A DNA stretch of 24,000 nt from Actinomycetales bacterium (GCA_036675425.1 JAKFFB010000045.1:11408-35407); one strand, 5' to 3'; positions 8,217-11,077 are shown, numbered from the stretch's first letter. A program made the numbers and translations. Notes: generated by a model from the sequence alone, not told the origin.

Positions 8217-8222
8217 TACCAT
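8217..8222 (+). promoter_or_regulatory. Candidate -10 hexamer TACCAT, 6 nt upstream of the meaA ATG (leaderless geometry)
   Basis: The sequence reads TACCAT-ccctgc-ATG(8229). There is no SD in the 46-nt gap after the protease gene. Confidence 0.3.
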
Positions 8223-8228
8223 CCCTGC

Positions 8229-10286
8229 ATGACCGAGCAGGTGCAGTCGATCGGCTCCGAGCCCACCGCGGACGTCAGCCCGCCCGCCGCCGCCGAGCGC
8301 CCGACGCGCGACAAGCCGTGGGTGATGCGGACCTACGCGGGGCACTCCACGCCCAAGGACAGCAACGCGCTCTACCGGCGCAACCTCGAGAAGGGGCAGA
8401 CCGGCCTCTCGGTCGCCTTCGACCTGCCGACGCAGACCGGCTACGACCCCGACGACGAGCTGTCGCGCGGCGAGGTCGGCAAGGTCGGCGTGCCGGTCAC
8501 GCACATGGGCGACATGCGGGCGCTGTTCGACAGCATCCCGCTCGCCGAGATGAACACCTCGATGACCATCAACGCCACCGCGATGTGGCTGCTGGCGCTC
8601 TACCAGGCGGTGGCCGAGGAGCAGGGTGCCGACCCGAAGCAGCTGGCCGGGACCACGCAGAACGACATCATCAAGGAGTACCTCTCCCGCGGGACCTACG
8701 TCTTCCCGCCCGGGCCGTCGCTGCGGCTGATCACCGACATGGTGGCCTACACCGTCAGCGAGATCCCGAAGTGGAACCCGACGAACATCTGCAGCTACCA
8801 CCTGCAGGAGGCCGGCGCGACGCCCGTGCAGGAGATCGCCTACTCCCTGTGCACCGCCATCGCCGTGCTCGACGCGGTGAAGGCCGCCGGTCAGGTGCCG
8901 GAGGAGCGCTTCGGCGAGGTCTGCGCGCGCATCTCCTTCTTCGTGAACGCGGGCGTCCGGTTCGTGGAGGAGATGTGCAAGATGCGCGCCTTCACCCAGC
9001 TCTGGGACGAGCTGCTGCTGGAGCGCTACAACGTGCAGGACCCCAAGCACCGTCGTTTCCGCTACGGCGTCCAGGTCAACTCGCTCGGCCTGACCGAGGC
9101 GCAGCCGGAGAACAACGTCCAGCGCATCGTGCTCGAGATGCTCGGTGTGACGCTGTCCAAGGACGCCCGGGCCCGCGCCGTCCAGCTGCCGGCCTGGAAC
9201 GAGGCGCTCGGCCTGCCGCGGCCGTGGGACCAGCAGTGGTCGCTGCGCCTGCAGCAGGTGCTGGCGTTCGAGACCGACCTGCTGGAGTACGACGACCTGT
9301 TCACCGGCTCGGTGGTCGTGGAGGCCAAGGTCGCCGCGCTCAAGGACGAGGTGCGCAAGGAGATCGACCGCGTGCAGGCCATGGGCGGAGCGGTCGCGGC
9401 CGTCGAGTCCGGCTACATGAAGAGCGCGATGGTGGGCTCGCACGCCGAGCGCCGCCGCCGGATCGAGGCCGGCGAGGACGTCGTGGTGGGCGTCAACAGG
9501 TTCACGACGACCGAGCCGTCGCCGCTCACCGCCGACATCGACAACGCCATCATGACCGTCGACCCCGAGGTCGAGCAGCAGGCGATCGACGCGGTGCGGA
9601 AGTGGCGCGCCGAGCGCGACGCGGCCGCCGTCGACGAGGCGCTTCGCGGACTGCGCGACGCCGCCAAGACCGACGCCAACCTGATGGCCGCCACGGTCGC
9701 CTGCGCGAAAGCCGGTGTCACGACAGGAGAGTGGGCCGGCGCGCTGCGCGAGGTCTTCGGCGAGTACCGCGCGCCCACCGGTGTCTCCGGCGCCGTCGCC
9801 TCGGGGGAGGCGGGCGAGGCGATCGCCGCGGTCCGCGAGGCCGTCAAGAAGACCGGCGAGGAGCTGGGCGTGCGCCTGCGCTTCCTCGTGGGCAAGCCCG
9901 GCCTCGACGGGCACAGCAACGGCGCGGAGCAGATCGCCGTACGCGCCCGCGACTGCGGCTTCGAGGTCGTCTACCAGGGCATCCGGCTCACGGCGGCGCA
10001 GATCGTGGCCGCCGCCGTCGAGGAGGACGTGCACGTCATCGGCCTGTCGATCCTGTCCGGCTCGCACATGGAGGCGGTCCCGGCGGTCCTCAAGGGACTG
10101 CAGGCGGCCGGCGTCGGCGAGGTGCCCGTGGTCGTCGGCGGGATCATCCCCGACGGCGACGCCCGCCGGCTCAAGGAGCAGGGGGTCGCGGCGGTCTTCA
10201 CCCCCAAGGACTTCGAGCTGACCGGCATCATGCGCACGGTCGTCGACGTGGTGCGCGAGGCCAACGGGCTGTCCCCGCTGTCGTGA
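8229..10286 (+). CDS. meaA: Fused coenzyme-B12-dependent acyl-CoA mutase, MeaA / ethylmalonyl-CoA mutase type
   Basis: A single 685-aa polypeptide joins a mutase TIM-barrel domain to a C-terminal B12-binding domain carrying DxHxxG (DGHSNG, nt 9906-9923). The N-terminal KPWVMRTYAGHS...GQTGLSVAFDLPTQTGYDPD matches the MeaA/Ecm subclade as I recall it, whereas MCM has YAGFS / DLATHRGYD. Substrate specificity is not provable from sequence alone. Confidence 0.82.
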   Translation: MTEQVQSIGSEPTADVSPPAAAERPTRDKPWVMRTYAGHSTPKDSNALYRRNLEKGQTGLSVAFDLPTQTGYDPDDELSRGEVGKVGVPVTHMGDMRALFDSIPLAEMNTSMTINATAMWLLALYQAVAEEQGADPKQLAGTTQNDIIKEYLSRGTYVFPPGPSLRLITDMVAYTVSEIPKWNPTNICSYHLQEAGATPVQEIAYSLCTAIAVLDAVKAAGQVPEERFGEVCARISFFVNAGVRFVEEMCKMRAFTQLWDELLLERYNVQDPKHRRFRYGVQVNSLGLTEAQPENNVQRIVLEMLGVTLSKDARARAVQLPAWNEALGLPRPWDQQWSLRLQQVLAFETDLLEYDDLFTGSVVVEAKVAALKDEVRKEIDRVQAMGGAVAAVESGYMKSAMVGSHAERRRRIEAGEDVVVGVNRFTTTEPSPLTADIDNAIMTVDPEVEQQAIDAVRKWRAERDAAAVDEALRGLRDAAKTDANLMAATVACAKAGVTTGEWAGALREVFGEYRAPTGVSGAVASGEAGEAIAAVREAVKKTGEELGVRLRFLVGKPGLDGHSNGAEQIAVRARDCGFEVVYQGIRLTAAQIVAAAVEEDVHVIGLSILSGSHMEAVPAVLKGLQAAGVGEVPVVVGGIIPDGDARRLKEQGVAAVFTPKDFELTGIMRTVVDVVREANGLSPLS

Positions 10287-11077
10287 CCGCCGAGCCGCGC
10301 GCCATCGACTCGGCCACGGCGCGCCGGCTGCGCGCGGCGAACCTCGCGCTGGCAGGGCTGCACGCCGTGCAGGCGGTCGTGCTGCTCGTCCTGACGACGT
10401 CGTTCTCGATCCCCGTCACCGAGGCCTTCCCGGAGGGACCGCCCGGGAGCGCGCCGCCCGGTGCGGAGTCGCTGCTCGACCTGCCGCTGGGCGTGCTGGT
10501 CGCGGCCTTCCTGCTGCTCGCTGCAGTGGACCACCTCGTCGTCGCGCTGCCGGGCGTCTTCGAGCGGCACCTGTCGCTGCTGTCCCGCAGCCGCAACCCG
10601 TTCCGGTGGGTCGAGTACTCCTTCTCGGCAACCCTCATGGTCCTGCTCATCGGGCTGCTCACCGGTGTCACCGACGTCACCGCGGTCATCGGGATCGCCG
10701 GCGCGAACGTCGCGATGATCCTGTTCGGCGCGCGCATGGAGCGGGTGAACGAGGGGCGCGACGAGGTCGAGTGGCAGCCCTTCGTCTACGGCTGCGTCAC
10801 CGGTGCCTTCCCGTGGGTCGCGATCACGACGGCGCTGATCGGCGCGGAGGTGCGCGGCGACGGCGCCCCGGCCTTCGTCTACGTCATCTTCGTCTCGCTC
10901 TTCGTGCTGTTCATGAGCTTCGCGGTCAACCAGTGGCTGCAGTTCCGCGCCCGGTCGCGCGGCGGTCGGTGGGCCGACCCGGTGCGGGTCGAGGTGACGT
11001 ACCTCGTGCTCAGCCTGGTCGCCAAGAGCCTGCTGGCGTGGCAGGTCTTCGCGAACGTGCTTCTCTCGCCGAGCTGA
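10283..11077 (+). CDS. Heliorhodopsin (7-TM retinal protein with inverted topology)
   Basis: The 264-aa, 7-TM protein aligns block by block with my recollection of heliorhodopsin 48C12:
- NPFRWVEYSFSATLMVLLI vs NIFRWVEYSLSSSVMIVLI
- GANVAMILFG vs GVNASMILFG
- PFVYGCVTGAFPWV vs PFWFGCIAGIVPWI
- FVSLFVLFMSFAVNQWLQF vs IISLFLFFNSFALVQYLQY
- VLSLVAKSLLAWQVF vs VLSLVAKSALAWQIF

The Schiff-base Lys is present (K248, nt 11024-11026), as are the counterion Glu (E111, nt 10613-10615) and two conserved His. The GTG start overlaps the meaA TGA. Confidence 0.85.
   Translation: MTAEPRAIDSATARRLRAANLALAGLHAVQAVVLLVLTTSFSIPVTEAFPEGPPGSAPPGAESLLDLPLGVLVAAFLLLAAVDHLVVALPGVFERHLSLLSRSRNPFRWVEYSFSATLMVLLIGLLTGVTDVTAVIGIAGANVAMILFGARMERVNEGRDEVEWQPFVYGCVTGAFPWVAITTALIGAEVRGDGAPAFVYVIFVSLFVLFMSFAVNQWLQFRARSRGGRWADPVRVEVTYLVLSLVAKSLLAWQVFANVLLSPS

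What the first reader, a model, noticed from the sequence alone, without database searches (positions are those of the whole stretch)
8217..11077. Heliorhodopsin translationally coupled to an adenosylcobalamin-dependent (ethylmalonyl-CoA-type) mutase
The ORF at 10283-11077 has the hallmarks of a heliorhodopsin: a RWVEYS counterion block, an SLVAKSxLAWQ Schiff-base lysine block and seven TM segments.

Its GTG start overlaps the TGA of the upstream B12-dependent mutase (GTGA at 10283-10286). It has no SD and no intergenic space, so the two must be co-transcribed and are probably translationally coupled. A single TANNNT box 6 nt upstream of the meaA ATG suggests one leaderless bicistron.

The physiological outputs of heliorhodopsins are mostly unknown. 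The partner proteins I know to be reported are glutamine synthetase and photolyase. A link to an acyl-CoA mutase is not one I know to be described.

Adenosylcobalamin is photolabile. A membrane photoreceptor hard-wired to a B12 enzyme therefore suggests light-dependent regulation or protection of the mutase, or of C2/C4 carbon flux. That functional link is inference only.
Basis: partly seen in the sequence, partly recalled or inferred. Interest (0 to 1): 0.8.

Follow-up and report, generated by a model that had tools for sequence, protein, structure and literature searches.

The report
Heliorhodopsin gene lodged behind meaA mutase
A genuine light-sensor gene (heliorhodopsin) sits right behind, and overlaps by four bases, a vitamin-B12-dependent acyl-CoA mutase gene. 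Relatives show this pairing is confined to one small actinobacterial group and is often lost or broken, so it looks like an accident of gene position, not a light-controlled B12 enzyme system.

Summary
ORF 10283-11077 is a full-length heliorhodopsin (HeR): Pfam E=1.6e-84, and His/His/Glu/Lys are all in place. ORF 8229-10286 is a MeaA/ethylmalonyl-CoA-type AdoCbl mutase. The HeR GTG overlaps the mutase TGA (GTGA) and has no Shine-Dalgarno sequence. A TACNNT box 6-7 nt before the mutase ATG is conserved in 5 of 6 relatives.

The proposed functional link is not supported.
- Of 80 diverse HeR loci from species-representative genomes, none has a mutase next to it. Two have one about 7 kb away.
- Of 80 metagenomic meaA loci (66-89% identity), none carries a HeR.
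- The window's closest meaA relatives (91-95% identity) have the same backbone without a HeR.
- Within the small HeR clade that does sit behind meaA, the junction varies: -4 nt, +10 nt, a 95-aa ORF in between, or 5.5 kb of opposite-strand genes.
- Equally close HeRs sit in unrelated contexts.

Best reading: meaA is a fixed gene at the edge of a variable region. An accessory HeR sits in the first slot and uses meaA's transcription and translation. Co-expression in this lineage is likely. Regulation or protection of the mutase by light remains untested speculation (about 10%).

The parts
8217..8222 (+). TACCAT, a -10-like TANNNT box 6 nt upstream of the meaA ATG. It is a candidate promoter for a leaderless meaA-HeR transcript.
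   Evidence: Sequence. The CCGTACNNT-N6/7-ATG arrangement is conserved in L173, L174, L086 and L004 but not in L171. The generic sigma-70 scan finds nothing, which is uninformative at 74% GC.
8229..10286 (+). AdoCbl-dependent acyl-CoA mutase of the MeaA/ethylmalonyl-CoA mutase type. It is a single chain of 685 aa with a substrate barrel and a B12-binding domain.
   Evidence: Pfam MM_CoA_mutase E=1e-131 plus B12-binding E=9e-19. It falls below the NCBIfam MCM equivalog cut-off (552 against 876 bits). The equivalents of Tyr89, Arg207, Tyr243-His244 and the DxHxxG motif of P. shermanii MCM are conserved. Homologues at 84-97% identity are named (2R)-ethylmalonyl-CoA mutase or protein meaA by JGI and NCBI. 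GC3 is 0.98.
10283..10286 (+). GTGA start/stop overlap: the HeR GTG and the meaA TGA. This is the presumed site of termination-reinitiation.
   Evidence: Sequence. There is no Shine-Dalgarno-like motif in the 20 nt upstream. The same GTGA overlap occurs in L166.
10283..11077 (+). Heliorhodopsin, 264 aa, of the actinobacterial 48C12-like type. Key residues are H27, H84, E111 (counterion) and K248 (retinal Schiff base).
11094..11137 (+). GC-rich hairpin in the 73-nt HeR-MoxR spacer, with no U-tract. It may mark the end of the meaA-HeR transcription unit. This is a weak inference.
   Evidence: RNA fold of 11070-11155: -40.2 kcal/mol, z=-2.2 against shuffles. The terminator scan, which requires a T-run, found none. 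The next gene (MoxR, GTG at 11151) has its own GGAG.

Best explanation
meaA is a positionally fixed housekeeping-type gene. It is the last gene of a conserved block, atp operon ... PduO adenosyltransferase ... ECF sigma ... murA - STAS - M10-like peptidase - meaA. Immediately downstream begins a variable region that ends at nucS and a 3-hydroxyacyl-CoA dehydrogenase gene.

In one shallow Frankiales/Mycobacteriales-like clade, an accessory heliorhodopsin gene occupies the first slot of that variable region.

In the window's lineage HeR has no promoter or ribosome-binding site of its own. It is transcribed from the meaA promoter, probably as a leaderless mRNA starting at or near the ATG at 8229. 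It is translated by ribosomes that terminate at TGA 10284-10286 and restart at GTG 10283.

The product is an intact retinal-binding, non-pumping photoreceptor of the 48C12 type. Its cellular target is unknown.

The pairing gives co-expression. It reflects descent from one ancestral arrangement, followed by repeated loss and disruption, and not a conserved functional module with the mutase.

What is shown: the gene identities, the overlap, the distribution across relatives, and the conserved promoter-like box. What is inferred: co-transcription, reinitiation, and the absence of a functional link.
For: Gene identities and key residues.

The backbone murA-STAS-(M10)-meaA ... nucS-3HCDH recurs in dozens of meaA loci without a HeR.

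Closest meaA relatives lack a HeR at the same site, with no HeR remnants:
- L173 (94.7% identical): meaA, 66-aa ORF on the minus strand, MoxR, DUF58, TgpA.
- L174 (93%): meaA, 66-aa ORF (-), DUF2071 (-).
- L086 (91%): meaA, then MoxR.

The junction decays among HeR+ relatives:
- L166: -4 nt.
- L171: +10 nt.
- L004: a 95-aa ORF lies between, and HeR has its own GGAG.
- L005: 5.5 kb with three opposite-strand genes.

HeRs that are just as close (62-74% identity) sit in unrelated contexts:
- L167-170: luciferase-like gene and GNAT acetyltransferase.
- L175/176: GGDEF-EAL gene and a mycosporine-type cluster.
- L179: RibD_C and GroEL.
- L177: no meaA within 3.4 kb.

The NJ trees interleave HeR+ and HeR- lineages, and linked and unlinked HeRs.

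In 80 diverse HeR loci, only L052 and L059 have a mutase within 10 kb. It lies 7 kb away with opposite-strand genes between. In 80 meaA loci there is no HeR.

HeR composition matches its neighbours, so there is no sign of recent foreign insertion.

Published surveys describe HeR neighbourhoods as diverse and lineage-specific. In Geodermatophilaceae they show no pattern and some HeR pseudogenes (PMC8612252, PMC11109279, bioRxiv 10.1101/2024.05.16.594530).
Against: - The mutase-HeR order on the same strand persists in four distinct lineages while the downstream neighbours change (MoxR, SnoaL_4, DUF2071). The exact GTGA overlap is kept between HeRs only 85% identical. That is somewhat more persistent than a purely neutral hitch-hiker might be.
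- Tight 4-nt overlaps are enriched in true operons (general knowledge).
- HeRs with experimentally shown partners (glutamine synthetase, photolyase, ABC transporter) were all found through just such lineage-restricted operons.
- Sampling of the close clade is thin, about 10 lineages.
Confidence: 0.65

Rival explanations
1. True functional module. Light-activated HeR binds MeaA at the membrane and modulates it, or shields its photolabile AdoCbl. This would tune ethylmalonyl-CoA pathway (C2/C4) flux to light. It is the first reader's hypothesis.
For: - GTGA coupling without a Shine-Dalgarno sequence, also seen in L166.
- Same-strand meaA-HeR order in four lineages.
- Precedent: HeRs regulate the soluble enzymes or transporters encoded beside them (PMC11109279; glutamine synthetase and photolyase cases cited).
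- AdoCbl photolability is established chemistry.
Against: - The closest meaA relatives do without a HeR.
- Equally close HeRs do without meaA.
- Insertions split the pair.
- No adjacency in 78 of 80 other HeR loci or in any of 80 other meaA loci.
- There is no biochemical evidence of any kind.
Confidence: 0.1
2. Regulatory hitch-hiking with a benefit. There is no physical interaction, but being placed under the meaA promoter gives HeR a useful expression pattern, for example during growth on C2 or fatty-acid substrates. Selection would then keep it in the first downstream slot in some lineages.
For: - HeR has no signals of its own.
- The meaA promoter-like box is conserved.
- Where a 95-aa ORF intervenes, HeR has acquired a GGAG.
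Against: It cannot be told apart from the neutral model with sequence data. Frequent loss of HeR argues for weak selection.
Confidence: 0.15
3. HeR works with the downstream MoxR AAA+ ATPase - DUF58 - transglutaminase (TgpA) genes, not with the mutase.
For: The MoxR operon starts 73 nt after HeR in the window. MoxR and DUF58 also lie near HeR in L177.
Against: - L173 and L086 carry the MoxR genes in the same place without a HeR.
- L166, L171 and L004 have a HeR without them.
- None of the 80 diverse HeR loci has them.
- MoxR has its own GGAG, and a hairpin precedes it.
Confidence: 0.03
4. The HeR ORF is a decaying or non-expressed remnant, or an artefact of long open frames in 74% GC DNA.
For: The frame is open from 8189 to 11077, which is typical of spurious high-GC ORFs. 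HeR pseudogenes are reported in Geodermatophilaceae.
Against: - GC3 is 0.96 in this frame only.
- The HMM match is full length and all invariant residues are intact.
- An identical protein was recovered from three independent sequencing runs.
Confidence: 0.02

Closest known systems
Heliorhodopsin 48C12 (PDB 6su3/6uh3) and TaHeR (6is6)
   Same: Alignable over residues 20-261 of 264 with E about 1e-53 to 1e-47. The fold signature is the same: His23, His80, Glu107 and Lys241 equivalents, and the FRWVEYS and SLVAKSxLAWQ blocks. It belongs to the actinobacterial 48C12-like group.
   Different: The alignment shows clear divergence from 48C12, and no solved or characterised HeR comes from this clade (no percent identity was computed here). 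Spectral and photocycle properties are untested.
HeR-partner operons with shown regulation: HeR-glutamine synthetase, HeR-photolyase, and HeR-OmrDE ABC transporter (PMC11109279)
   Same: A HeR is co-directional with, and tightly spaced to, a gene for a cytoplasmic or membrane enzyme. The arrangement is restricted to particular lineages.
   Different: The neighbour here is an AdoCbl acyl-CoA mutase. That is not among the ten frequent neighbour groups of Shim et al. 2024, nor among the contexts in the main text of Bulzu et al. 2021 (their full neighbour table S9 is not held and could not be checked). No interaction data exist, and the comparative signal is weak, with frequent loss and disruption.
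Ethylmalonyl-CoA mutase (Ecm/MeaA) of Rhodobacter sphaeroides, Methylorubrum and Streptomyces
   Same: Single-chain mutase of about 650-700 aa, shorter at the N-terminus than the MCM alpha subunit. Carboxylate-binding Tyr and Arg, the Tyr-His pair and DxHxxG are conserved. Homologues are annotated as ecm or meaA. In more distant relatives a 3-hydroxyacyl-CoA dehydrogenase-like gene lies directly upstream.
   Different: It is not in a ccr-meaA-mcl-mcd cluster as in Streptomyces (own knowledge). The rest of the ethylmalonyl-CoA pathway is not visible in the window. Substrate specificity was not tested, and no Ecm structure or Ecm-specific HMM was available here.
CarH/LitR-type AdoCbl photoreceptors
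   Same: This is the only established biological link between light and AdoCbl, and it occurs in Actinobacteria (own knowledge).
   Different: It is a completely different protein family and mechanism: a B12-binding transcription factor. Nothing of that kind lies in the window.

Membership tests
Heliorhodopsin (Pfam PF18761 / NCBIfam NF038020) | Full-length match to the family HMM above the curated cut-off | tested here: met
   Pfam 283.5 bits (cut-off 26.7), profile 1-242 of 242. NCBIfam equivalog 256.5 bits (cut-off 100).
Heliorhodopsin (Pfam PF18761 / NCBIfam NF038020) | Schiff-base lysine in TM7 (K241 of 48C12) and a single Glu counterion in TM3 (E107) | tested here: met
   K248 and E111 align to K241 and E107 of 6su3. 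Both are invariant in 25 relatives.
Heliorhodopsin (Pfam PF18761 / NCBIfam NF038020) | Conserved His23 and His80 of the 48C12-type proton-accepting group | tested here: met
   H27 and H84 align to them and are invariant.
Heliorhodopsin (Pfam PF18761 / NCBIfam NF038020) | Seven TM helices with inverted topology (N-terminus in the cytoplasm) | tested here: inconclusive
   The hydropathy profile is compatible with seven hydrophobic segments, but the segments overlap and are not cleanly resolved. The N-terminal 20 residues carry four Arg against two acidic residues, which fits positive-inside, but topology itself was not determined.
Heliorhodopsin (Pfam PF18761 / NCBIfam NF038020) | Binds all-trans retinal, absorbs visible light, slow photocycle, no ion pumping | not testable with these tools
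   Needs expression and spectroscopy. No retinal or carotenoid biosynthesis genes are present in the 24-kb window.
Ethylmalonyl-CoA mutase (Ecm/MeaA) subclade of AdoCbl acyl-CoA mutases | Fused substrate-barrel and B12-binding domains with DxHxxG (base-off/His-on) | tested here: met
   PF01642 plus PF02310. DGHSNG aligns to DGHDRG of 1req.
Ethylmalonyl-CoA mutase (Ecm/MeaA) subclade of AdoCbl acyl-CoA mutases | Carboxylate-substrate residues (MCM Tyr89, Arg207, Tyr243-His244) retained, unlike ICM, HCM and PCM | tested here: met
   RTYAG, LSRGTY and SYHLQEAGAT align to the MCM positions. The residue roles come from the established MCM literature (own knowledge).
Ethylmalonyl-CoA mutase (Ecm/MeaA) subclade of AdoCbl acyl-CoA mutases | Distinct from bona fide methylmalonyl-CoA mutase | tested here: met
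   552.6 bits against the equivalog cut-off of 876 for NF006944. The alignment starts at MCM residue 81, so the N-terminal extension is missing. Close homologues are named ecm or meaA by two sources. This rests on annotation by homology, not on an Ecm-specific model.
Ethylmalonyl-CoA mutase (Ecm/MeaA) subclade of AdoCbl acyl-CoA mutases | Genome encodes the rest of the ethylmalonyl-CoA pathway (ccr, epimerase, mcd, mch, mcl); enzyme converts (2R)-ethylmalonyl-CoA to methylsuccinyl-CoA | not testable with these tools
   Only 24 kb is available. No ccr or mcd lies in the window. Activity needs an assay.
HeR-partner regulatory operon (functional HeR-enzyme pair) | Adjacency conserved across divergent lineages or arising independently | tested here: not met
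   It is confined to one clade (meaA at least 85% identical) and interleaved with HeR-less relatives. 78 of 80 other HeR loci have no mutase within 10 kb (some of those loci have shorter flanks), and 0 of 80 other meaA loci have a HeR.
HeR-partner regulatory operon (functional HeR-enzyme pair) | Physical interaction and light-dependent change of partner activity | not testable with these tools
   Requires biochemistry.

The most novel reading that the evidence does not exclude
In this Frankiales-like lineage the heliorhodopsin is a light-dependent regulator or protector of the AdoCbl-dependent ethylmalonyl-CoA mutase. The two are made in a fixed ratio by translational coupling, which would link light to C2/C4 carbon assimilation or to the turnover of a photolabile cofactor. 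This would be a new class of HeR output. The comparative data make it unlikely as a conserved system, but they cannot exclude it for the few lineages that keep the overlap.
Probability: 0.1. Interest if true: 0.75.

Novelty: new member of a known kind. Interest (0 to 1): 0.3.

Why it matters
Heliorhodopsin function is still largely open, and the few known outputs were all found by following operon partners. A B12-enzyme partner would therefore be a notable new output and would tie light sensing to a photolabile cofactor.

The survey here shows that this particular lead is weak. The pairing is a shallow, eroding synteny at the edge of a variable region. It should rank below HeR contexts that recur across lineages.

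It still gives a cheap, well-defined experiment: co-express HeR and MeaA from this locus, then test binding and light versus dark activity. It is also a clear example of why a 4-nt overlap alone should not be read as functional coupling in compact high-GC actinobacterial genomes.

Tried and rejected
- Generic sigma-70 promoter and T-tract terminator scans over 6400-11400 found nothing. This is uninformative at 74% GC.
- An Rfam scan of the whole window found no cobalamin riboswitch or any other RNA family.
- I looked for HeR remnants in the HeR-less relatives L173, L174 and L086 with sensitive blastn. Only the flanking meaA 3' end and the MoxR 5' region match, so loss and never-gained cannot be told apart from scars.
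- I tried to obtain the Ecm signature residues from Erb et al. 2008 (JBC 283:32283). The paper is not held, so the call between Ecm and MCM rests on HMM cut-offs, N-terminal length and homologue names.
- The supplementary neighbour table of Bulzu et al. 2021 is not held.
- I considered a HeR-MoxR/DUF58/TgpA link and rejected it on distribution.
- I considered recent horizontal insertion of HeR. There is no compositional anomaly.
- L177's upstream partial gene turned out not to be the mutase.
The closest genome relatives were therefore not returned, and I sampled close relatives through the 12 contig look-ups instead.
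Full report
**1. What is in the sequence**

The window is 73.8% GC. Its best protein matches are from Frankiales/Mycobacteriales-like metagenome-assembled genomes.

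The ORF at 10283-11077 (+) encodes 264 aa.
- Codon-position GC is 0.71/0.47/0.96, matching the flanking genes. The other two frames do not show this pattern.
- It matches Pfam Heliorhodopsin end to end (E=1.6e-84) and the NCBIfam HeR equivalog (256 bits, cut-off 100).
- Against solved heliorhodopsins (48C12 6su3/6uh3, TaHeR 6is6) it aligns over residues 20-261. H27, H84, E111 and K248 fall on His23, His80, Glu107 and Lys241.
- These four residues, and the FRWVEYS and SLVAKSxLAWQ blocks, are invariant in 25 relatives.
- The hydropathy profile is compatible with seven hydrophobic segments, although two pairs overlap and are not cleanly resolved.

The ORF at 8229-10286 (+) encodes 685 aa.
- It has MM_CoA_mutase and B12-binding domains.
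- It scores well below the NCBIfam equivalog cut-off for methylmalonyl-CoA mutase (552 against 876 bits).
- It lacks the first ~50 residues of the MCM alpha chain: query residue 29 aligns to MCM residue 81.
- It keeps the Tyr89, Arg207, Tyr243-His244 and DxHxxG equivalents.
- It has many homologues at 84-97% identity that JGI calls (2R)-ethylmalonyl-CoA mutase and NCBI calls protein meaA.

So 'MeaA/Ecm-type' is a reasonable label. It rests on homology, not on an Ecm-specific test.

**2. The junction and expression signals**

- The junction reads CTGTCGTGACC. The HeR GTG (10283-10285) overlaps the meaA TGA (10284-10286).
- There is no GGAG, GAGG or AGGA in the 20 nt before it.
- The next in-frame start would remove the invariant R15, L16, R17 and N20.
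- The meaA start is fixed by the conserved N-terminus MTEQVQSIGSE. The motif CCGTACNNT lies 6-7 nt before the ATG in the window, L173, L174, L086 and L004, though not in L171, while the rest of the spacer diverges.
murA in the window has a similar TAGACT 7 nt before its ATG.
- After HeR, a 73-nt spacer forms a GC-rich hairpin (-40 kcal/mol, z=-2.2). MoxR then starts with its own GGAG.

A meaA-HeR bicistron with termination-reinitiation is therefore a sensible model for this lineage. It is an inference.

**3. Is the pairing conserved? HeR-centred view**

A scan of species-representative genomes returned 80 HeR loci (45-57% identity) from Actinomycetota, Chloroflexota and others.
- Only L052 and L059 have a meaA homologue within 10 kb. 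It is 7 kb away and separated by mostly opposite-strand ORFs.
- None of the other 78 has any of the window's neighbours.

Among closer HeRs, recovered with contig look-ups:

| Locus | HeR identity to window | Arrangement |
|---|---|---|
| L166 | 85% | Same GTGA overlap with the upstream meaA 3' end |
| L171/L172 | 74% | meaA stop, then 10 nt, then the likely GTG start |
| L004 | 70% | meaA, a 95-aa ORF, then HeR with its own GGAG |
| L005 | 66% | meaA, the 95-aa ORF homologue, three opposite-strand genes (5.5 kb), then HeR |
| L177 | 69% | 95-aa ORF, an 841-aa opposite-strand gene, then HeR; no meaA in the 3.4 kb available |
| L167-L170 | 72-74% | Behind a luciferase-like oxidoreductase and a GNAT acetyltransferase |
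| L175/L176 | 65% | Beside a GGDEF-EAL-PAS gene and a mycosporine-type cluster |
| L179 | 62% | Between RibD_C and GroEL genes |

In an NJ tree the non-meaA-context HeRs nest among the meaA-linked ones.

**4. Is the pairing conserved? meaA-centred view**

A metagenome scan returned 80 meaA loci at 66-89% identity. 48 of them have at least 900 nt of downstream sequence. None has a HeR.

These loci show a widely conserved backbone, murA-STAS-(M10 peptidase)-meaA ... nucS-3HCDH, with variable content between meaA and nucS.

The window's nearest meaA relatives have that backbone and no HeR:
- L173 (94.7% identical): meaA, a 66-aa opposite-strand ORF, MoxR, DUF58, TgpA, nucS.
- L174 (93%): meaA, the same 66-aa ORF, DUF2071.
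- L086 (91%): meaA, then MoxR.

Sensitive blastn finds no HeR remnants in them. In the meaA tree, HeR+ and HeR- lineages are interleaved. HeR+ lineages are also basal (L171, L005), which fits one ancestral arrangement with several losses. HeR composition is not anomalous.

**5. Interpretation**

meaA marks the fixed edge of a variable region, and HeR occupies the first slot in some members of one shallow clade.
- The mutase is retained when HeR is lost.
- HeR persists when moved elsewhere.
- Insertions have repeatedly split the pair.

This is the pattern expected of inherited synteny under weak or no selection for adjacency. It is not the pattern of a functional module. The overlap makes co-expression likely in the window's lineage. 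Four-base overlaps are the commonest packing of co-directional genes in such genomes (general knowledge). In this window the MoxR/DUF58 and DUF58/TgpA junctions are packed the same way.

I put 0.65 on the hitch-hiking model, 0.15 on a purely regulatory benefit of sitting under the meaA promoter, and 0.10 on a real HeR-MeaA functional interaction.

**6. Comparison with the literature**

- Published HeR neighbourhood surveys list glutaredoxin/GSHPx, glyoxalase, catalase and histidine-kinase contexts (Bulzu et al. 2021, PMC8612252).
- Shim et al. [quoted passage not shown] No mutase appears.
- A full-text search for heliorhodopsin plus mutase gave only irrelevant hits.

The meaA-HeR arrangement is thus apparently undescribed. 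It fits the known picture of promiscuous, lineage-specific HeR contexts.

**7. Verdict**

- Novelty: new members of known kinds in a lineage-specific arrangement.
- Interest: 0.3.

Noticed in passing
L175 410-4809 and 5804-8864 (also L176): A HeR 65% identical to the window's lies next to a four-gene cluster: DHQ-synthase-like, O-methyltransferase, an unannotated 442-aa gene and a D-Ala-D-Ala-ligase-like gene. This looks like a mycosporine-like amino acid (sunscreen) cluster. The HeR is divergently adjacent to a PAS-GGDEF-EAL protein. This light-related context may be a more interesting HeR lead than the mutase.
   Followed up: no
L004 7705-7992; L177 659-946; L005 about 2317-2600: A conserved 95-aa ORF with no Pfam hit (VTDPYECWLRAEDVPAFL...) is 74-89% identical between loci. 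It lies just downstream of meaA and/or near HeR in one sub-lineage and is absent from the window.
   Followed up: partly
L173 4127-4327 (-); L174 9037-9237 (-); L166 1324-1506 (-): A conserved 60-66-aa hydrophobic ORF on the opposite strand (MIMAFLSSRIRTWVLFAVLLP...) sits immediately after meaA in HeR-less relatives, and after HeR in L166. It is absent from the window.
   Followed up: partly
window 2630-3235 (-): A PduO-type ATP:cob(I)alamin adenosyltransferase (Cob_adeno_trans, E=1e-60) lies 5 kb upstream of the B12 mutase, next to the ATP synthase genes and DUF2550. The same placement in L004 and L174 shows it is part of the conserved backbone and not a special B12 island.
   Followed up: partly
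window 11151-15003 (+): A MoxR-type AAA+ ATPase (AAA_3), a weak DUF58-like protein and a TgpA-type transglutaminase form a three-gene set with 4-nt start/stop overlaps. It is present at the same site in the HeR-less relatives L173 and L086.
   Followed up: partly
L088, L089, L091, L094, L103, L137, L146, L150 (directly upstream of meaA): In more distant actinobacterial relatives, a gene of about 280 aa for a 3-hydroxyacyl-CoA dehydrogenase-like protein (42-45% identical to part of window 15713-18025) lies immediately upstream of meaA. This fits a role in C4-CoA metabolism.
   Followed up: no
window 5171-5196: murA has a TAGACT box 7 nt upstream of its ATG and no Shine-Dalgarno sequence, like meaA. 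Leaderless transcripts may be common in this organism.
   Followed up: no
window 8189-11077 (+) and 9971-11653 (-): Very long spurious open frames (962 aa and 560 aa) run through or across the real genes. This is typical of 74% GC DNA, and only the codon-position GC identifies the true frames.
   Followed up: yes
L171 2245 versus 2299: The public gene call for this HeR (238 aa, GTG at 2299) probably starts too late. A GTG at 2245 restores the conserved RRLR N-terminal motif and leaves only 10 nt after the meaA stop.
   Followed up: yes
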